Shown: positions 15,127-22,205, numbered from the stretch's first letter. The stretch is 32,000 nucleotides of DNA from Raphidiopsis brookii D9 (GCA_000175855.1 ACYB01000035.1:210001-242000); one strand, 5' to 3'. Notes: generated by a model not told the origin, from the sequence alone. Program-made: numbers and translations.

Positions 15127-15155
15127 GGAAACATTTTAGTGATAAAATAGTGGGT

Positions 15156-15584
15156 ATGGTTCACCACATCCAAAACTTCGGACCTATTAAATCAGGACTT
15201 ACAGAAAATGAGGGCTTGGTTACAGCTGGTAATACACTAATTATGACCACTCATAGTCCTTACATTATTGACTACCTTACCTTAGCAATTAAAGCACAGC
15301 AGATTTTACAAACTTTTGATAATTTCCCGAAGGGAGAGTTTTTAAAAACTAAACTCAAAAATATTGTTCCTTTGAATTCCTCCATATTTCCAGAAGATTC
15401 AATTGTATACGAGTTAACAGATAGTGGAGAAATTAGAAAACTTTCTACCTATGAAGGACTACCTTCTGATGAAAATTATTTGAATAGTTGTTTGGCAGAA
15501 ACCAATCGATTTTTCAGTGACTTATTAGAAATTGAGGAAGAAATACTATTTTTCCACCCACTCATCAGACAATCCATAAAATAA
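15156..15584 (+). pseudogene. remnant of an ABC-like AAA_15/AAA_21-type ATPase, apparently internally deleted
   Basis: The N-terminus MVHHIQNFGPIKSG matches the first beta-strand of this family (I.NFg.Ik). The sequence then jumps directly to the C-terminal H-loop region NTLIMTTHSPYIIDYL. Walker A, the signature motif and Walker B are all absent. The 3' end overlaps cbiO by 39 nt. Confidence 0.45.
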
Positions 15585-17124: not shown

Positions 17125-17439
17125 TTATTTTGCTGGCTTATTCTTAGGGTTTTGCGGTTGGGAACGTCCCTTGTATAACCCAATTGCATAACCAACCACT
17201 CCAGCGCCCAAAGCTGCTTGTAAAGCAAATAATAAACTTTCTATTTCTCCACTAGGAGGTTCAAACAATGATGTAAACCAAGGTTTATATTTAGGTTGTA
17301 TTTCAGTTATTACCTTTTGGGCTTGCTGATCGGCCCCTCCAAATTCACTATCACGAATTAACACTAGTGGTGTCACCGCTAAAATTACTACACCTACTAC
17401 CAAAAGCCAGTTAATTAACCCTTTCTGAGACTGATTCAT
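17125..17439 (-). CDS. cbiN: cobalt transport protein CbiN
   Basis: 104 aa with two TM helices flanking a loop that contains FGGADQQA...KPWF...[21 protein letters not shown], the CbiN pattern. It overlaps the cbiM 3' end by 29 nt. Confidence 0.85.
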
Positions 17440-18199
17440 TTCCCTTTCCTCCCTTGATTAATTGTAAAAGTTCCAACTCTTGAGGATTATAAGATTGTAG
17501 CCAATTCCACACTAGCAGGGTTAGCAATCCTTCGCTAATTGCTAAAGGAACTTGAGTAATGGCAAAAATTCCAGTAAACTTGACGAATGAGGCCATAAAG
17601 CCACCAACCGGTGCGGGAAAAGCCAGGGCAAGTTGTATAGAGGTAATTATATATGTCAGTAAATCTGCTATCGCAGCTGACAAAAAGATGGCAATTTTCT
17701 CTTTACCACTAATTTTAATTGTCAAATTGTATATCCAATATGCAGCAAAAGGTCCAGCTATGGCCATAGAAAAGGCATTGGCCCCCAATGTGGTTAATCC
17801 ACCATGTGCTAACAGCAAGGATTGAAATAATAGGACCAAGCTACCCAGGACTGACATTGTTAAAGGACCAAATAGTACTGCACCCAATCCAGTACCGGTG
17901 GGATGGGAGGAACTACCCGTAACCGAGGGGATTTTTAATGCTGACAGCACAAAAGCGAAAGCACCAGCCAAACCCAGTAGTAGTTTCAGCTGGGGGTTGG
18001 CCTGAGTAGTGCGAGTTAGACTGCGTAACCCAAGAATAAAAAAGGGTAATGCTACTACCCACCAAAAAACTGCCCACTCTACTGGTAGGAAACCCTCCAT
18101 AATGTGCATGGCGTAGGCGGGCTTTGGCACACTAACTAATATACAGAAACTGACAATTGCTATTAGGGTGGGATTGAATAAACCCCGTTTTACTCTCAC
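17411..18199 (-). CDS. cbiM: ECF cobalt transporter substrate-capture component CbiM (with a cleavable leader)
   Basis: The mature N-terminus MHIMEGFLP, typical of CbiM/NikM, is preceded by a signal-like leader ending in AYA. I prefer the GTG at 18199 ([31 protein letters not shown]). The track start at 18250 is TTG and lies inside the promoter elements described below. Confidence 0.88.
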
Positions 18200-18243
18200 A
18201 ATTTCTACCTCACAAACTTTATCCGACTTTTTGGCGATTGCTG

Positions 18244-18273
18244 TTGACAAGCAAATCTTACCTTAACTATACT
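18244..18273 (+). promoter_or_regulatory. near-consensus sigma70-type promoter for the 18338 ATPase gene
   Basis: TTGACA (18244-18249) - 18 nt - TATACT (18268-18273). The predicted TSS is near 18280, about 58 nt upstream of the start codon. It interdigitates with the divergent cbiM promoter. Confidence 0.5.
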
Positions 18274-18337: not shown

Positions 18338-19672
18338 TTGGATATAACAAAATCTCTTTACCAAGCTTGCAACCCCAACAAAACCTTAAATAGTAATAAT
18401 CCTGAAGATAAAAAACGGTATATTGACTTCTCTCCAGTTCGGGGACGGGAAATAATTAAGGAACTAAAACGGACTATTACCCGACTTTCCCCAGATTTAC
18501 CAACTTGTCAACTGTTTACTGGACATATCGGTGTGGGTAAGTCTACTGAGTTAATGCGTCTAAAATCAGAACTGGAAACTGAATTTTTTCACGTAGTATA
18601 TTTTGAATCTAGTCAGACTTTGGATTTAGGAGATGTTGATGTTACGGACATTTTATTAGCAATAGCTAAAGAAGTAAGTCACAGTTTAGAGGTTACACAA
18701 ATCAAAGTTAAATCCGGATTTTTCCAGACTCTATTTAAGGATGTGATTGAGTTCTTACAAACACCCTTGGATATTGATTTTGAGGCGGAGTTATCTGTTG
18801 GTATAGCTAAAATCACTGCAAAAACTAAGGAAAGTCCCAAACTACGTAATCAGCTCAGACAGTATTTAGAACCTCGCACCGCTAGTATTTTACAGTCCAT
18901 CAATAGAGAATTACTAATCCCTGCTCAAGAGGAATTAAAACAGCGGGGTAAGTCAGGTTTAGTAGTAATTATTGATAATTTAGACAGGATAGATAATAGT
19001 CCTAAAGCTAATGGTCAATATCAACCAGAATATCTGTTTGTTGAAAGAGGTGAAGATTTAAAAGCTTTAAGCTGTCATATTGTGTATACTATTCCTTTAG
19101 TGCTGATATTTTCCAATGCTTTAGGTAGATTAATTAATCGCTTTGGGGTAGATCCTAAAGTGTTGCCAATGATATCTGTTAAACAAAGAAATGGTGAATA
19201 CTACTCAGCAGCTATGACACTTCTACAACAAATGATTATGGTCAGAGCTTTTCCCGGTGTGAATTGGCAACAAAGTTCAGAGAAATTGGCCTTGACCACT
19301 CAGATTTTTGATAGTCCTAAAACGTTTGATCGCCTTTGTCAGGTTAGCGGTGGCCACTTACGTAGTCTTTTGAAGTTGTTGTTTCGTTGTTTACAATCCC
19401 AGGATGTACCAATTTCTCGTCTATGTTTGGAAAATACCATTAGAGAACAATGTAATCTGTTAAGTTTAGCTATTACACCTGATGAATGGGAACTATTGCG
19501 AGAAGTACGGAAAACAAAAACATATAGAGGTGAAGAACAGTATGATATTTTGCTACGCAGCTTGTTTGTTTTTGAATATCGAGATCACCAAGGTTCTTGG
19601 TTTGATATTAATCCAATTTTATTAGAAAACTCCGAATTTTCTGGGTATTATAGGGATTCATATCATGAATAA
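18338..19672 (+). CDS. P-loop NTPase with an Orc1/Cdc6- or STAND-like AAA+ layout; function unknown
   Basis: 444 aa. The N-terminal lead-in YIDFSPVRGREIIKELKRTI precedes Walker A GHIGVGKSTEL and Walker B LVVIIDNLDRID. A helical C-terminal half follows (GGHLRSLLKLLFRCL). The start at 18338 is TTG. The stop overlaps the next ORF in ATGAATAA. Confidence 0.7.
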   Translation: MDITKSLYQACNPNKTLNSNNPEDKKRYIDFSPVRGREIIKELKRTITRLSPDLPTCQLFTGHIGVGKSTELMRLKSELETEFFHVVYFESSQTLDLGDVDVTDILLAIAKEVSHSLEVTQIKVKSGFFQTLFKDVIEFLQTPLDIDFEAELSVGIAKITAKTKESPKLRNQLRQYLEPRTASILQSINRELLIPAQEELKQRGKSGLVVIIDNLDRIDNSPKANGQYQPEYLFVERGEDLKALSCHIVYTIPLVLIFSNALGRLINRFGVDPKVLPMISVKQRNGEYYSAAMTLLQQMIMVRAFPGVNWQQSSEKLALTTQIFDSPKTFDRLCQVSGGHLRSLLKLLFRCLQSQDVPISRLCLENTIREQCNLLSLAITPDEWELLREVRKTKTYRGEEQYDILLRSLFVFEYRDHQGSWFDINPILLENSEFSGYYRDSYHE

Positions 19673-20114
19673 TTTGGAGAATGTTGCTAATAATAACCAT
19701 GATGCAATTAGGAGTATATTGAGAGCTATTAGCTTTTCCCAAGGTCAGTTTTCTCTTATCTTTTTACACTGTAATTGTGTTAGATTCCACCGGGAAATAG
19801 CAGTAAAATTGCGTGGGAGTTATTGTACAAGAATTGAGGAGATAAATCTATCCCCATCCGCTATAAGTCTCTATGACAACATATCAGCCACAATGGTAAA
19901 TATACAACCCTATGCTGTGATGGTTTTTGGTTTAGATGCTGCTAAGAATCTGGATTCGATTTTACAAGTGTCAAACCAAATTAGAGAGGAATTTAGCAGA
20001 AAATTTGCCTTTCCGCTATTTATTTGGATAGATGATCAAGTACTTAGAAGAATTATTAGGATTGCACCAGACTTAGAAAGCTGGAGTACTATTATTAAGT
20101 TACAGTCTCCCTAA
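19665..20114 (+). CDS. 149-aa protein resembling the N-terminal module of large cyanobacterial TPR/CHAT proteins (possibly truncated)
   Basis: Motifs QGQFSLIFLHCNC..FHREI, AVMVFGLDAAKNLDSILQVSNQIREEFSRKFAFPLFIWIDDQVLRRIIRIAPDLESWST. From memory, these match the start of proteins over 1000 aa long (..ALILARCNY.. / ..VFGLE.. / NQVREEFRKNF.FPLVLWV.D.. / APDFESWAT). It overlaps the upstream ATPase gene by 8 nt and the convergent cupin gene by 15 nt. Confidence 0.55.
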   Translation: MNNLENVANNNHDAIRSILRAISFSQGQFSLIFLHCNCVRFHREIAVKLRGSYCTRIEEINLSPSAISLYDNISATMVNIQPYAVMVFGLDAAKNLDSILQVSNQIREEFSRKFAFPLFIWIDDQVLRRIIRIAPDLESWSTIIKLQSP

Positions 20115-20537
20115 AACCGCCAGATCTTCAACGTCCAGGTCGACAGGTATACCACTTCTAATCAGTTCCGAGAAATCTTCGTTAGGAATCATAACAGTGA
20201 GTATATAAAGACGAGTTTTACCCGTATTTCTAATCAGATGGATGCCCATTGGTGGTACTAATAAACTATCCCCAGCCTTGATATTTACTTTTTTACCATC
20301 ACAAATTGCCATACCCTCCCCCTTGAGAATGAAGAACATTTCTACGGCCCACTGATGGCGATTAGGTGGAGTTTGTCCACCAATATCAAAAATTTCCACA
20401 CAGCAAGTTAAAGAAGTATTAGCTGTGTTGGAATCAAAGATAATTGCTAACCGATTAGTATCATAAGGGCTAATGCGGTATGCTTGATAATCTTGAGGAG
20501 ACTTGATCACAGGAATAATACAACGATGACTAATCAT
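20100..20537 (-). CDS. cupin domain protein
   Basis: 145 aa with a cupin_2-like core: NRHQWAVEMFFILKGEGMAICDGKKVNIKAGDSLLVPPMGIHLIRNTG. Confidence 0.75.
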   Translation of the reverse strand: MISHRCIIPVIKSPQDYQAYRISPYDTNRLAIIFDSNTANTSLTCCVEIFDIGGQTPPNRHQWAVEMFFILKGEGMAICDGKKVNIKAGDSLLVPPMGIHLIRNTGKTRLYILTVMIPNEDFSELIRSGIPVDLDVEDLAVLGRL

Positions 20538-20743: not shown

Positions 20744-22205
20744 ATGACCATAACACTAGAAGAAATGCGTAAAAAGCTAAAACAGGTTTGGGGTTATGAA
20801 AATTTTCGTCCTCCTCAAGAAGAAATAGTCAGTAGTTTGCTATCACAAAAAGATGCTTTAATTATTATGCCTACGGGAGCGGGAAAATCTATTTGTTTTC
20901 AACTTCCAGCCCTTTTAAGTAATGGTTTAACTCTGGTAGTTTCACCATTAATTGCATTAATAGAAAATCAGGTTGAAGAGCTAAAACAAAGGAATCAAAA
21001 GGCAGATCTGCTGCACAGTGAATTACCTGCTAGTCAACGTTATAAGGTTTTAGAATCTATTAGTAAACAACAGTTGAGATTATTATACTTATCACCAGAA
21101 ACTCTCCTCAGTTCTGCTGTGTGGGAAAAAATCTCCCATCCCCACATAGGAATTACCTCCCTAATATTAGATGAAGCACATTGTTTGGTACAATGGGGAG
21201 AAACATTTAGACCAGTCTATCGTCGTTTAGCAGCTGTGCGTCCGTCCTTATTAAACACCAAACCGCCGGGAACAAAAATTAGTGTAGCAGCTTTCACAGC
21301 TACCGCTGACCCTAGTACACAAAACATTATTAAGGATGTTTTGCAATTACAACAACCTGACATTTATCGACTTAATCCCTATCGTCAAAATTTACAACCT
21401 ACTGTCAAAACTGTCTGGACACCAAAAGCAAGAAAACAGCAATTATTAAAGTTCCTTCAACTCCATCCCCATCAAACAGGATTGATTTATGTTAGAACTC
21501 GTAAAGACAGTGAAGAATTGGCTCAATGGTTAATGAATCTTGGCTATCATACAGCTAGTTACCATGGGGGTTTGAGTGGGGAAGAAAGACGAGCTATAGA
21601 AAAAAGTTGGTTGCATGGAAAAAAATCATTTGTTGTCTGTACTTGTGCTTTTGGTATGGGGATCAATAAAGCTGATGTTCGATGGATAGTCCATTTTCAT
21701 GCTCCCTATTTATTATCAGAATATGTTCAGGAAATTGGACGTGCAGGAAGAGATGGAATAGTTGCAGAAGTTTTAACTTTTATCAGTGAACCTAACCGGT
21801 TTTTTTGATGGGGAAGACCAAAGAAGAAAACTGTTTTTTCAGCAACAAATATTACAACAATACAAAAAAGCTCAAGAATTAATTAAGAAATTACCACTAC
21901 AGGGAGAAGTTAAGTCCGTAGTTAAAGAATTTCAACATGGTGCGACAGCACTGGCCATACTTCATAGCAGTGGAAGACTACTCTGGAATGACCCTTTTCA
22001 TTATCAGATTTTGGGTAGGGATATTCATCAGAGCAGGACATACTTTAATCCTGCTCAACAAATGGTTGAATATTTAAGAACTAAAAACTGTCGTTGGCAG
22101 TTTTTATTGCAGTCCTTTGGCTTTAATAAAGATAGAGAAAATTGGCGTTGTGGACACTGTGACAACTGTAGATTTAAATCAGGGGGTTTTCAGGGGATTT
22201 CTTGA
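20744..22205 (+). pseudogene. recQ: ATP-dependent DNA helicase RecQ, interrupted by a +1 frame break at a T7 run
   Basis: ORF 20744-21808 carries helicase motifs I-VI (MPTGAGKSICFQLPAL, LDEAHCLVQWG, FTATAD, QEIGRAGRDG). ORF 21786-22205 carries the RecQ Zn-binding region (CRWQFLLQSFGF...CGHCDNC). The two frames meet at TTTTTTT (21800-21806). Removing one T gives the seamless reading ...SEPNRFFDGEDQRRK... Confidence 0.8.

What the first reader, a model, noticed from the sequence alone, without database searches (positions are those of the whole stretch)
18338..20114. Translationally coupled Orc1/Cdc6- or STAND-like ATPase plus an isolated TPR/CHAT-protein N-terminal module: candidate uncharacterised NTPase conflict or signalling pair
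The 444-aa protein has intact Walker A (GHIGVGKST) and Walker B (VVIIDNLDR) motifs. The N-terminal lead-in and helical C-terminal half resemble Orc1/Cdc6- or STAND-type switches rather than any metabolic ATPase. Its stop overlaps the start of a 149-aa ORF (ATGAATAA), which implies co-translation. The small protein has an alpha/beta pattern (FSLIFLHCNC ... AVMVFGLD ... NQIREEF ... PLFIWIDD ... APDLESWST). That pattern reads like a Walker-A-less NTPase-like fold. From memory, it is the conserved N-terminal module of very large cyanobacterial TPR/CHAT (caspase-like) proteins, which belong to the NTP-dependent conflict systems discussed by Kaur, Burroughs, Iyer and Aravind (2020). Here the module stands alone and ends where the convergent cupin gene begins. 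Either the effector or repeat part has been deleted, or this is a minimal two-component version. I know of no experimental description of such a pair.
Basis: partly seen in the sequence, partly recalled or inferred. Interest (0 to 1): 0.66.

Follow-up and report, generated by a model that had tools for sequence, protein, structure and literature searches.

The report
ATPase plus stump of giant sensor gene
This is an intact ORC/Cdc6-like ATPase gene followed by the cut-down first domain (a nucleotide-blind copy of an ATPase fold) of a giant cyanobacterial sensor protein, so it is a remnant of a widespread, undescribed two-gene cassette that probably acts in cell-conflict signalling.

Summary
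Window 18338-19672 encodes a 444-aa P-loop ATPase. Its stop overlaps (ATGAATAA) the start of a 149-aa ORF (19665-20114).

**ATPase.** It scores just above Pfam's KAP_NTPase threshold but has no membrane insert. Its AlphaFold2 model best matches ORC1/Cdc6, then BrxC and Apaf-1/CED-4.

**Small protein.** It matches no Pfam, NCBIfam or PADLOC family. Its model is an AAA+ core without a Walker A motif (Sir3-, ORC2-5- and TnsC-like).

**Conserved pairing.** In 75 of 77 evaluable cyanobacterial loci, the ATPase gene is followed by a gene that begins with this module. That gene is normally 1,100-2,000 aa with the order module-TPR-nSTAND1-WD40. Of 27 scanned, 27 have nSTAND1, 23 have WD40 and none has CHAT.

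**This locus.** The window ORF is the N-terminal stump of that giant. Homology to sister Raphidiopsis genomes ends at 20096, the domain boundary. The stump is still under purifying selection (pN/pS 0.19-0.49). Conserved stand-alone 161-165-aa versions coupled to an ATPase paralogue exist in Lyngbya and Symploca.

**Best reading.** This is a minimal or remnant form of an apparently undescribed cyanobacterial cassette. The ATPase and the pseudo-ATPase head probably form an active/inactive AAA+ complex. That complex and a conflict role are inferred, not shown.

The parts
18244..18273 (+). Promoter-like site (TTGACA, 18-nt spacer, TATACT; 11 of 12 matches) in the 87-nt divergent gap between cbiM and the ATPase gene
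   Evidence: This is a consensus match only, and the number of such sites in the region is not above the shuffled expectation. Weak evidence.
18338..19672 (+). Gene for a 444-aa Orc1/Cdc6-/STAND-like AAA+ ATPase, annotated elsewhere as 'KAP family P-loop' or 'P-loop NTPase fold protein'
   Evidence: ORF. Pfam KAP_NTPase 29.6 bits against a cutoff of 20. 100% identical to C. raciborskii CENA303 protein P0012 and 63-74% identical to ~434-aa orthologues across Nostocales. AF2 model pLDDT 78. Foldseek top hits are ORC1/Cdc6. pN/pS 0.11-0.14.
18521..18544 (+). Walker A motif GHIGVGKS (residues 62-69)
   Evidence: G62, G65, G67 and K68 are conserved in at least 90% of 40 diverse family members.
18962..18988 (+). 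Walker B motif VVIIDNLDR (residues 209-217)
   Evidence: D213 is invariant in alignment A3.
19349..19363 (+). GGHLR motif (residues 338-342), a candidate sensor-2 arginine in the lid domain
   Evidence: G338 and G339 are invariant and R342 is conserved in at least 90% of alignment A3. The motif lies in the helical lid of the model. Its equivalence to the Cdc6 GDAR or PF01637 GGxPR motif is my inference, not a tool result.
19478..19609 (+). C-terminal winged-helix-like domain (residues about 381-424: two helices plus a beta-hairpin)
   Evidence: Secondary structure of the AF2 model. Residues 360-444 are acidic (pI 4.9), which argues against DNA binding.
19665..19672 (+). ATGAATAA: the start codon of the small ORF overlaps the ATPase stop codon
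   Evidence: The same arrangement is annotated in Raphidiopsis L004. The Lyngbya, Symploca and L097 minimal pairs have a 4-nt overlap.
19665..20114 (+). 149-aa ORF: a stand-alone Walker-A-less AAA+-like core (alpha0 helix, then beta1 to beta5). It is the truncated N-terminal module of the module-TPR-nSTAND1-WD40 giant
   Evidence: No hit in Pfam, NCBIfam or PADLOC. 44% identical to the first 148 aa of the 1,552-aa gene downstream of the A. variabilis orthologue. AF2 pLDDT 82, pTM 0.77. Foldseek hits: Sir3 AAA+, ORC2-5, Cdc6, Hda, TnsC. pN/pS 0.19-0.49.
20096..20097 (.). Rearrangement junction. Homology to sister genomes stops here, after codon 144 of the small ORF and at the end of the last strand of the domain. 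Downstream is the convergent cupin gene instead of the phn cluster
   Evidence: blastn of L004, L012 and L007 against the window. Tail sequences compared.

Best explanation
The locus is the cut-down form of a widespread cyanobacterial two-gene cassette.

**Gene 1** is a soluble Orc1/Cdc6-/STAND-like AAA+ ATPase with an ATPase core, a helical lid and a winged helix.

**Gene 2** is normally a 1,100-2,000-aa protein with four parts in order:
- an N-terminal AAA+ core that has lost Walker A (a pseudo-ATPase);
- a TPR stretch;
- an nSTAND1 NTPase;
- WD40 propellers.

In the Cylindrospermopsis/Raphidiopsis lineage, gene 2 has been reduced to the pseudo-ATPase domain alone. In this strain a further rearrangement trimmed it exactly to the domain boundary.

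**Shown here**
- the identity and folds of the two proteins;
- the near-universal adjacency of the two genes;
- the truncation;
- purifying selection on both ORFs.

**Inferred mechanism**
- The active ATPase and the pseudo-ATPase module assemble side by side into a mixed active/inactive AAA+ complex, as in ORC-Cdc6.
- The module is therefore the docking point through which the ATPase gates, or is recruited by, the nSTAND1-WD40 sensor when that sensor oligomerises on a ligand.
- In this genome only the ATPase-module core remains, translated from one message. It is kept because it still does something: acting alone, or on a module-bearing receptor encoded elsewhere in the genome.
- The cassette as a whole most likely belongs to the NTP-dependent conflict or programmed-cell-death systems of multicellular bacteria.

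**Sub-confidences**
- remnant of the cassette: about 0.9;
- module is an AAA+-like pseudo-ATPase: about 0.75;
- direct ATPase-module complex: about 0.45;
- conflict or defence role: about 0.5.
For: **Adjacency.** In 80 genome loci found with the ATPase, 74 have a same-strand ORF starting with the module within -24 to +950 nt. One more locus (L071) carries the module split by a frameshift. Three loci end at a contig edge and cannot be evaluated.

**Architecture of the giants.** nSTAND1 in 27 of 27, WD40 in 23 of 27, with TPR_12 between the module and nSTAND1.

**Folds.** See for the module and for the ATPase.

**Truncation.** Homology with L004, L012 and L007 ends at window position 20096. Four genomes have four different C-terminal tails, but all keep the whole domain.

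**Selection.**
- Small ORF: pN/pS 0.19, 0.27 and 0.49, with P = 6e-5, 6e-4 and 0.06 against neutrality.
- ATPase: pN/pS 0.11-0.14.

**Independent conserved stand-alone modules coupled to an ATPase paralogue by a 4-nt overlap.** These occur in Lyngbya aestuarii L011, Symploca L094 and metagenome L097.

**Fusion.** One protein, P0275, joins the module and the ATPase in a single 687-aa chain.

**Co-inheritance.** Pairwise distances of the ATPase track those of the module (r = 0.94) at least as well as those of the linker (0.86) or nSTAND1 (0.90).

**Conflict flavour.**
- ATPase family members are fused to TIR_2, to CHAT plus TRADD-N, and to other STAND modules.
- Copies lie on cyanobacterial megaplasmids.
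- On A. marina pREB2 the pair sits between HicAB, RelE/ParE, integrases and a NACHT gene.
- There are multiple paralogous cassettes per genome.

**Precedent.** Active plus inactive STAND pairs proposed to form hetero-multimers are described in PMC8195603.
Against: - No complex prediction or experiment was possible, so ATPase-module contact is inferred only from adjacency, a single fusion and co-inheritance. Plain operon linkage would produce all of these.
- Profile-profile comparison of the module with the ATPase family found nothing (hhalign probability 0.6%).
- The module's fold matches are modest: best E 1.7e-4, TM-scores 0.5-0.63.
- The ATPase is unusually conserved for a defence gene: 63-74% identity across Nostocales, and less divergent than its partner.
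- It is retained when the sensor is lost, and it occurs as an orphan among housekeeping genes in L069 and L080.
- There is no convincing PADLOC match, only PDC-S20 at E 4e-4 to 1e-6 over the P-loop region, and no phage homologue.
- Stand-alone modules also occur with no ATPase nearby (L008, L095, L098, L007).
- Selection on the stump is relaxed relative to the ATPase. Recombination, as seen in L007, could distort the estimates.
Confidence: 0.6

Rival explanations
1. Dead stump. The 149-aa ORF is a non-functional leftover of the deleted giant gene, still open only because it is short and recent. Only the ATPase does anything in this genome.
For: - The ancestral gene was more than 1,100 aa in the nearest relatives (Dolichospermum, Anabaena).
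- The 3' end differs in each of four related genomes.
- pN/pS is higher than for the ATPase, and one comparison (0.49, P = 0.06) is not significantly below 1.
- The same strain also shows decay of a neighbouring PDC-M29 system and of recQ.
- Clearly decaying versions exist elsewhere (L096, L022, L031 and the IS-cut L030).
Against: - Two of three within-clade comparisons show strong purifying selection (P = 6e-5 and 6e-4).
- Every rearrangement spares the complete domain, and the start/stop overlap is kept.
- All family-invariant residues (P82, L90, R107, E109, P117, W121) are intact.
- Conserved stand-alone versions of fixed length (161-166 aa) form several families in other cyanobacteria.
Confidence: 0.2
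2. Not a conflict system. The ATPase, with or without the module, is a conserved cyanobacterial regulatory switch for development, stress or signal transduction. The nSTAND1-WD40 giant is one of its clients.
For: - The ATPase is highly conserved (63-74% identity across an order; pN/pS 0.11-0.14).
- It is retained after loss of the sensor.
- Orphan ATPase copies lie next to ftsQ-like and glycosyl-hydrolase genes.
- The minimal pair in Lyngbya and Symploca lies directly downstream of PAS-histidine-kinase and response-regulator genes.
- There is no real PADLOC or phage match.
Against: - Family members are fused to TIR, CHAT plus TRADD-N and STAND modules.
- The cassette is multi-copy and plasmid-borne, and sits in a toxin-antitoxin/integrase/NACHT island on pREB2.
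- The partner is of the nSTAND1 type, which PMC8195603 places in counter-invader systems.
Confidence: 0.25
3. The small ORF is the N-terminal module of giant TPR/CHAT (caspase-like) proteins, so the pair is an effector-less form of a CHAT protease system.
For: - A TPR stretch follows the module in the full-length proteins.
- One distant ATPase-family member is fused to CHAT plus TRADD-N (P0303).
- A CHAT-TPR gene lies 3.5 kb upstream of one plasmid copy.
Against: - None of 27 module-bearing giants has a CHAT domain, and all 27 have nSTAND1.
- An HMM of the module run against all ORFs of 98 loci hit only the genes downstream of the ATPase and stand-alone copies. It did not hit the CHAT-TPR gene in L092.
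Confidence: 0.05
4. Operon neighbours without contact. The module is simply the N-terminal output or adaptor domain of the STAND protein, for example a nucleic-acid-binding inactive NTPase. The ATPase acts separately in the same pathway.
For: - Inactive STAND/NTPase domains have been proposed as nucleic-acid receptors (PMC8195603).
- Stand-alone modules occur without an ATPase, and ATPases occur without modules.
- hhalign finds no relationship between the two families.
Against: - Adjacency holds in 75 of 77 evaluable loci, across paralogous classes.
- The stop and start codons overlap in many loci.
- A module-ATPase fusion exists.
- When gene 2 is cut down, it is the module that is kept next to the ATPase.
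Confidence: 0.2

Closest known systems
Active/inactive STAND pairs and iSTAND/iSTAND2 components of NTP-dependent conflict systems (Kaur, Burroughs, Iyer & Aravind 2020, PMC7159879; Kaur, Iyer, Burroughs & Aravind 2021, PMC8195603)
   Same: An active NTPase is encoded next to, or combined with, an NTPase-fold domain whose nucleotide-binding motifs have eroded. These systems are found in multicellular bacteria. The partner carries nSTAND1 and superstructure-forming repeats. Family members share TIR, CHAT and TRADD-N domains.
   Different: - There is no MoxR/vWA pair.
- The inactive domain here is only a 150-aa AAA+ core at the N-terminus of a protein that also has its own active nSTAND1.
- The partner ATPase is a separate ~440-aa Orc1/Cdc6-like protein.
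- Term searches did not find this cassette in those papers.
- No profile for iSTAND was available, so homology to it was not tested.
ORC-Cdc6 initiator assemblies and the Sir3 AAA+-like domain
   Same: These are the best structural matches for both proteins. ORC mixes ATP-binding and non-catalytic AAA+ subunits in one ring, which is the model proposed here for the ATPase and the module. The layout is an AAA+ core, a lid and a winged helix.
   Different: - There is no detectable sequence homology.
- TM-scores are only 0.4-0.6.
- The winged helix here is acidic.
- Nothing links the locus to replication.
Apaf-1-like and bacterial WD40 STAND receptors (Avs/NLR-like proteins; bioRxiv 10.64898/2026.01.04.697583)
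   Same: The full-length partner is a STAND NTPase with C-terminal WD40 propellers, like Apaf-1. The N-terminal position is the one usually held by an effector or adaptor.
   Different: - The N-terminal domain is a pseudo-ATPase, not a CARD, protease or nuclease.
- A dedicated upstream ATPase is part of the cassette.
- In the window the whole receptor part is missing.
KAP family P-loop NTPases (Pfam PF07693)
   Same: The Pfam hit is above the gathering threshold. There is a long insert between Walker A and Walker B. NCBI names the protein 'KAP family P-loop domain-containing protein'.
   Different: The roughly 115-residue insert is a soluble helical bundle with no membrane helices. The match covers only the first half of the Pfam model (positions 4-166 of 293).
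PADLOC candidate system PDC-S20
   Same: It is the only defence-model hit for the ATPase family (E 4e-4 for the window protein and about 1e-6 for orthologues).
   Different: The match covers only the P-loop region (about 150 of 464 model positions) at a low score. The partner genes do not match.

Membership tests
KAP NTPase (PF07693) | Profile match above Pfam's curated threshold | tested here: met
   29.6 bits against a cutoff of 20, E 5e-7, residues 39-221 on model positions 4-166 of 293. The match is partial.
KAP NTPase (PF07693) | Transmembrane helices inserted in the P-loop domain between Walker A and Walker B (family description as I recall it from Aravind et al. 2004) | tested here: not met
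   There is no hydrophobic 19-mer between residues 70 and 209. The most hydrophobic window (KD 1.76, residues 248-266) is strand beta4 plus a helix of the core. The insert is modelled as four amphipathic helices.
Orc1/Cdc6-type AAA+ ATPases | AAA+ core, helical lid and C-terminal winged helix, with structures of the family as the best fold matches | tested here: met
   Foldseek ranks 1-8 are mostly ORC1, Cdc6 and archaeal Orc1/Cdc6 (E 4e-7 to 2e-5, probability 1.0), but TM-scores are only 0.36-0.43. The domain order comes from the model.
Orc1/Cdc6-type AAA+ ATPases | Sequence-profile membership (Pfam, NCBIfam or PDB sequence match to Cdc6/ORC) | tested here: not met
   There is no Cdc6/ORC family among the Pfam hits. 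ATPase_2 (24.2 bits against a cutoff of 33.2), AAA_16 and AAA_22 all fall below threshold. NCBIfam gave nothing. The PDB sequence search returned only marginal matches to SRP receptor and mS29 (E 0.004 and 0.007).
Orc1/Cdc6-type AAA+ ATPases | Sensor-2 arginine in the lid (GDAR-type motif) | tested here: inconclusive
   A conserved GGHxR motif (G338 and G339 invariant, R342 in at least 90%) lies in the lid of the model. Its equivalence to sensor 2 is inferred, not aligned by a tool.
STAND NTPases | NBD-helical domain-winged helix unit followed by a repeat or sensor region. Profile match to a STAND clade | tested here: not met
   The three-domain unit is present, and Apaf-1, CED-4 and plant resistosome proteins are among the fold hits. 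However, the ATPase has no repeats, and its only STAND profile hit (nSTAND_NTPase5, 23.1 bits) is below the cutoff of 34.
N-terminal module of the module-TPR-nSTAND1-WD40 proteins (unnamed family, no Pfam entry) | Full-length alignment to the first ~150 residues of those proteins, with the conserved residues kept | tested here: met
   44% identity over residues 1-148 to the A. variabilis 1,552-aa protein. The invariant columns P82, L90, R107, E109, P117 and W121 in 65 sequences are defined on the window protein itself. The module HMM hits the N-terminus in 98 of 102 significant matches; the other 4 lie 116-151 residues into stop-to-stop ORFs that extend upstream of the likely start codon.
   0 of 27 carry CHAT and 27 of 27 carry nSTAND1. 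The module HMM does not hit the CHAT-TPR gene in L092.
AAA+ fold (for the 149-aa module) | An alpha0 helix followed by a five-stranded alpha/beta core resembling AAA+ structures. No P-loop | tested here: met
   AF2 pLDDT 82, pTM 0.77. The elements are H2-24, E30-35, H39-52, E57-61, H69-76, E84-88, H96-113, E117-122, H124-140 and E142-145. Nearly all of the top 50 Foldseek hits are AAA+ or related ATPases, but the best E is only 1.7e-4 and TM-scores are 0.5-0.63. The sequence after beta1 reads 'HCNC' with no GK[ST].
Known anti-phage defence systems (PADLOC-DB 2.0) | Confident match of the component proteins to a system's models | tested here: not met
   The ATPase gave only PDC-S20 (E 4e-4) and SspC (E 0.008), both partial. 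The module gave nothing. The giant matched only through its WD40 region.
iSTAND / iSTAND2 inactive STAND modules | Profile similarity to the published iSTAND alignments and association with MoxR-vWA | not testable with these tools
   No profiles for these modules are in the libraries offered. No MoxR or vWA genes were seen next to the cassette in the loci inspected.

The most novel reading that the evidence does not exclude
The ATPase and the pseudo-ATPase module form an autonomous ORC-like, mixed active/inactive AAA+ switch. This switch is the conserved upstream controller (loader, licensing factor or guard) of nSTAND1-WD40 receptors throughout filamentous cyanobacteria. That would be a two-tier NTPase architecture with no described counterpart in bacterial or eukaryotic NLR systems. 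The Cylindrospermopsis/Raphidiopsis locus would be its naturally minimised core, still functional without a cis-encoded receptor.
Probability: 0.25. Interest if true: 0.75.

Novelty: new variant of a known kind. Interest (0 to 1): 0.5.

Why it matters
nSTAND1-WD40 giants are among the largest and most numerous STAND-type (NLR-like) proteins of multicellular cyanobacteria, and none has been characterised. Three points make them experimentally approachable:

- Nearly all members of this clade come with a dedicated Orc1/Cdc6-like ATPase.
- They start with a previously unannotated pseudo-ATPase domain.
- Nature has repeatedly reduced the system to just ATPase plus module.

The result is a 600-residue two-protein core that can be expressed, assayed and modelled. 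If the two proteins form a mixed AAA+ complex, that would add an extra, ATP-dependent layer of control to bacterial STAND signalling. For genome annotation, the work gives the 149-aa 'hypothetical protein' an identity. It also corrects the 'KAP family' label to a soluble Orc1/Cdc6-/STAND-like ATPase.

Tried and rejected
- **Module search by profile.** It listed only proteins of 300 aa or less, although the giants demonstrably carry the module. The list is biased by candidate selection. I used it only to find stand-alone families, not for architecture statistics.
- **hhalign, module against ATPase family.** No relationship was found, so the idea that the module is a recent duplicate of the ATPase core is not supported.
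- **PDB sequence searches with both profiles.** Nothing useful came back.
- **NCBIfam for both proteins, the giants and the 80-aa ORF.** No family matched.
- **PADLOC.** No system matched the pair.
- **Phage collection.** No match.
- **Rfam on the whole window.** There were no RNA families, so no cobalamin riboswitch was detected in the cbiM/ATPase intergenic region.
- **L007 as evidence for long-term constraint on the stump.** I rejected this. Its ORF is a recombinant whose divergent 5' part may have evolved inside a full-length gene.
- **Mirror-tree correlation.** It is reported but carries little weight, because linked genes co-vary anyway.
- **Literature searches.** Searches for the pair using nSTAND1, KAP NTPase, WD40, cyanobacteria and Cylindrospermopsis defence found no description. 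The library is incomplete, so absence is not proof.
Full report
**1. What is in the sequence**

The two ORFs are exactly as described.
- The ATPase ORF runs from 18338 to 19672 on the + strand (444 aa). TTG is the only usable start, because a TAG stop lies 9 nt upstream and the conserved N-terminus follows immediately.
- Walker A is GHIGVGKS (residues 62-69) and Walker B is VVIIDNLDR (residues 209-217).
- The ATPase stop overlaps the start of a 149-aa ORF (19665-20114) in the octamer ATGAATAA.
- The last 15 nt of the small ORF overlap the 3' end of a convergent Cupin_2 gene (20100-20537).
- Upstream, on the other strand, lies a cbiMNQO transporter operon.
- A near-consensus sigma-70-type promoter match sits at 18244-18273. 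This is a pattern match only.

The ATPase is 100% identical to a protein of Cylindrospermopsis raciborskii CENA303, so the window comes from that species complex.

**2. The ATPase**

Sequence-family evidence:
- Pfam places it just above the KAP_NTPase threshold (29.6 against 20 bits), over the first half of the model only.
- ATPase_2, nSTAND_NTPase5, AAA_16 and AAA_22 score below their thresholds.
- NCBIfam has nothing.
- PADLOC gives only a weak partial PDC-S20 hit.

Structural evidence:
- The AlphaFold2 model (pLDDT 78) shows a P-loop core with a roughly 115-residue soluble helical insert between Walker A and B, a helical lid, and a C-terminal winged-helix-like unit.
- There is no membrane helix in the insert. 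The feature that I recall as defining KAP NTPases is therefore absent.
- Foldseek against the PDB ranks ORC1, Cdc6 and archaeal Orc1/Cdc6 first (E 4e-7 to 2e-5). BrxC, Apaf-1, CED-4, RdrA, TnsC and plant resistosome NLRs follow.
- TM-scores are low (about 0.4), as expected for a multi-domain model.
- A conserved GGHxR motif in the lid sits where I would expect the sensor-2 arginine. That is my inference.
- The winged-helix region is acidic (pI 4.9). This fits a STAND-type regulatory winged helix better than a DNA-binding one.

Membership in either family by sequence is not met.

Size and reach of the family:
- It has 329 clusters (50% identity) at E<=1e-30, and orthologues are 63-74% identical across Nostocales.
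- Some members are fused to TIR_2 at the C-terminus, to CHAT plus TRADD-N at the N-terminus, or to further STAND/TPR modules.
- One member carries an N-terminal region with a vWA-like DxSxS motif, judged by eye.
- Copies occur on cyanobacterial megaplasmids. None occurs in phages.

**3. The 149-aa protein**

- It matches no Pfam, NCBIfam or PADLOC family, and no PDB sequence.
- With a 65-sequence alignment, AlphaFold2 gives a confident model (pLDDT 82, pTM 0.77). It has a long N-terminal helix followed by a five-stranded alpha/beta core.
- Foldseek hits are almost all AAA+ or related ATPase domains. They are led by Sir3 AAA+-like, ORC2-5, Cdc6, Hda and TnsC (best E 1.7e-4, TM-scores 0.5-0.63). 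Several of these, as I recall, are themselves non-catalytic AAA+ domains.
- The position after strand 1, where a P-loop would sit, reads 'HCNC'.

**4. What the small ORF is a piece of**

In Anabaena variabilis ATCC 29413 the gene 20 nt downstream of the ATPase orthologue encodes 1,552 aa. Its first 148 residues are 44% identical to the window ORF.

A scan of one genome per species with an ATPase profile returned 80 loci:
- In 74 loci, a same-strand ORF beginning with the module follows within -24 to +950 nt.
- In one more locus (L071), the module is present but split by a frameshift.
- Three loci end at a contig edge.
- Two loci (L069, L080) are true orphans, lying between an ftsQ-like gene and a glycosyl-hydrolase gene.

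Complete downstream ORFs are mostly 1,100-2,000 aa. Of 27 scanned against Pfam, all have nSTAND1, 23 have WD40 propellers and none has CHAT. A TPR_12 stretch lies between the module and nSTAND1.

The module is thus the N-terminal domain of module-TPR-nSTAND1-WD40 giants, not of TPR/CHAT proteins. Several genomes carry two paralogous cassettes. On Acaryochloris marina plasmid pREB2 the pair is flanked by HicAB, RelE/ParE, two integrases and a NACHT gene.

**5. What happened in this lineage**

- The window aligns with Raphidiopsis sp. BLCC-F218 (L004) and with a MAG labelled Cuspidothrix (L012) at 94-96% identity, from the cbi operon through the ATPase. The alignment stops at position 20096, which is codon 144 of the small ORF.
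- In those genomes, and in a related metagenome contig (L007), the small ORF is 151-159 aa. It is followed by a phosphonate C-P lyase (phn) cluster rather than the cupin gene.
- The tails of L004 and L007 ('IIDFDENHR...') still align with the full-length Dolichospermum and Anabaena proteins ('IIDFENDSE...').
- So the giant was already cut to about 150-160 codons in the common ancestor. The window strain had a second rearrangement that trimmed it to the end of the last strand.
- Four genomes have four different tails, but all keep the whole domain.

**6. Is the stump alive?**

Within the clade that shares the truncation, the counts are as follows (NG86 values).

| Gene | pN/pS (three pairwise comparisons) | P against neutrality |
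|---|---|---|
| Small ORF | 0.19, 0.27, 0.49 | 6e-5, 6e-4, 0.06 |
| ATPase | 0.11-0.14 | 1e-17 to 2e-14 |

- All residues invariant in the 65-sequence family alignment are intact in the window protein.
- I set aside the more distant L007 comparison. Its ORF is recombinant: the 5' two-thirds are 65-75% identical and the 3' third is about 100% identical.
- On balance the stump is under selection, somewhat relaxed. A recent dead remnant is not excluded (rival 1).

**7. Minimal versions elsewhere**

Stand-alone modules of fixed length form several conserved families.
- **Paired type.** One family (161-165 aa; Lyngbya aestuarii L011, Symploca L094, metagenome L097) is encoded directly after a 450-451-aa ATPase paralogue, with a 4-nt start/stop overlap. 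A conserved roughly 80-aa ORF with a hydrophobic N-terminus follows. In two of the three loci, a module-headed nSTAND1-WD40 giant comes next.
- **Orphan type.** A second family (164 aa) stands alone next to an RlaP-family gene with no ATPase nearby.
- **Decaying copies.** Examples are L096 (an ATPase, a 161-aa module and WD40 fragments) and L030 (cut by an IS630-like transposase).

'ATPase plus module only' is therefore a recurrent state, and in some lineages a stably conserved one.

**8. How it most likely works (inference)**

The arrangement suggests that the two proteins associate as neighbouring subunits of a mixed AAA+ assembly. It consists of an active Orc1/Cdc6-like ATPase next to a nucleotide-blind AAA+ core that heads a STAND receptor.

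Eukaryotic ORC combines ATP-binding and non-catalytic AAA+ subunits in this way. PMC8195603 also proposes this for an active/inactive STAND pair.

On this reading the module is the handle by which the ATPase gates, or is recruited by, the nSTAND1-WD40 receptor. When the receptor part is lost, the ATPase-module core can persist.

Support is indirect:
- the adjacency of the two genes;
- frequent start/stop overlap;
- retention of the module whenever gene 2 is shortened;
- one module-ATPase fusion protein (P0275);
- tight co-inheritance (r = 0.94).

Against it:
- there is no complex prediction;
- there is no detectable homology between the two families;
- orphans of both kinds exist.

A conflict or programmed-death role is suggested by the family's TIR and CHAT-TRADD-N fusions, the plasmid and island contexts, and the nSTAND1 partner. 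It is weakened by the ATPase's high conservation, by orphan copies among housekeeping genes, and by the lack of any defence-database match.

**9. Comparison with what is known, and novelty**

The closest concepts are:
- the inactive-STAND components and active/inactive STAND pairs of Kaur et al. (2020, 2021);
- ORC/Cdc6, for the folds and for the mixed-ring idea;
- Apaf-1-like WD40 STAND receptors;
- KAP NTPases, through the database label.

Term searches of those papers and of the wider library did not find this cassette or this module. The module also has no Pfam or NCBIfam entry.

I rate the cassette as a new variant of a known kind (STAND-type NTP-dependent systems), and the window locus as its truncated form.

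Interest is moderate. The cassette is widespread, uncharacterised and experimentally tractable. However, the locus itself is a remnant, and the mechanism is not demonstrated.

Noticed in passing
window 15150-15584 (+): This 144-aa ORF is the remnant of a PADLOC candidate defence ATPase, PDC-M29A (E 6.5e-42, C-terminal quarter only). The sister genome L004 has intact PDC-M29A (420 aa, E 9e-170) and PDC-M29B (184 aa, E 1.5e-62) at the same place. The window has lost about 850 bp and about 580 bp.
   Followed up: yes
window 20744-22205 (+): A RecQ-like helicase is split into two overlapping ORFs in different frames: 354 aa with DEAD and Helicase_C, and 139 aa with RecQ_Zn_bind. This is probably a frameshift, from either gene decay or a sequencing error.
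   Followed up: partly
window 20096/20097; L004 6432 onward; L012 6513 onward: In three related genomes a phosphonate C-P lyase (phn) cluster follows the small ORF. In the window the cupin gene is there instead. The presence or absence of the phn cluster at this site is therefore strain-variable, and the junction lies inside the small ORF.
   Followed up: partly
L007 1707-2429: In this Raphidiopsis-like metagenome contig, the small ORF is a recombinant. Its 5' two-thirds are only 65-75% identical to L004, while the 3' third and the flank are about 100% identical. There is no ATPase upstream. A Uma2-family gene and a further 152-aa ORF (family not checked) are there instead.
   Followed up: partly
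L011 8001-8240; L094 6224-6466; L097 6156-6398: A conserved roughly 80-aa ORF follows the stand-alone module in the Oscillatoriales variant of the cassette. It starts MNR(K/L), then has a hydrophobic stretch that looks signal-peptide-like by eye, and ends with a 'DEPxxxCxxxGxC' motif. No family matched.
   Followed up: partly
P0275 (687 aa); P0294 and P0302 (TIR_2); P0303 (CHAT plus TRADD-N); P0246 (N-terminal region with a vWA-like motif by eye): Members of the ATPase family occur fused to the module itself, to TIR, to CHAT-TRADD-N, and to an uncharacterised N-terminal region of about 550 aa.
   Followed up: partly
L030 9419-10162: In Cyanocohniella sp. LLY the giant gene is cut to 156 aa. 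An ORF that looks like an IS630-family DDE transposase (identified by eye from the sequence) lies on the opposite strand immediately downstream.
   Followed up: no
L069 and L080, 7977-9353: Orphan 458-aa ATPase copies in Oscillatoriaceae lie between an FtsQ-type POTRA gene and a GH15/phosphorylase-kinase-like gene. No module-bearing gene is within 8 kb downstream.
   Followed up: partly
output: The profile search with the module returned only proteins of 300 aa or less, although the 1,100-2,000-aa giants clearly contain the module. This appears to be a bias in candidate selection by the tool.
   Followed up: no
window 17411-18250 (-): The CbiM ORF as listed starts at a TTG and carries about 47 residues ahead of the conserved 'MHIMEGFLP'. 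No cobalamin riboswitch or other Rfam family was detected anywhere in the window.
   Followed up: partly
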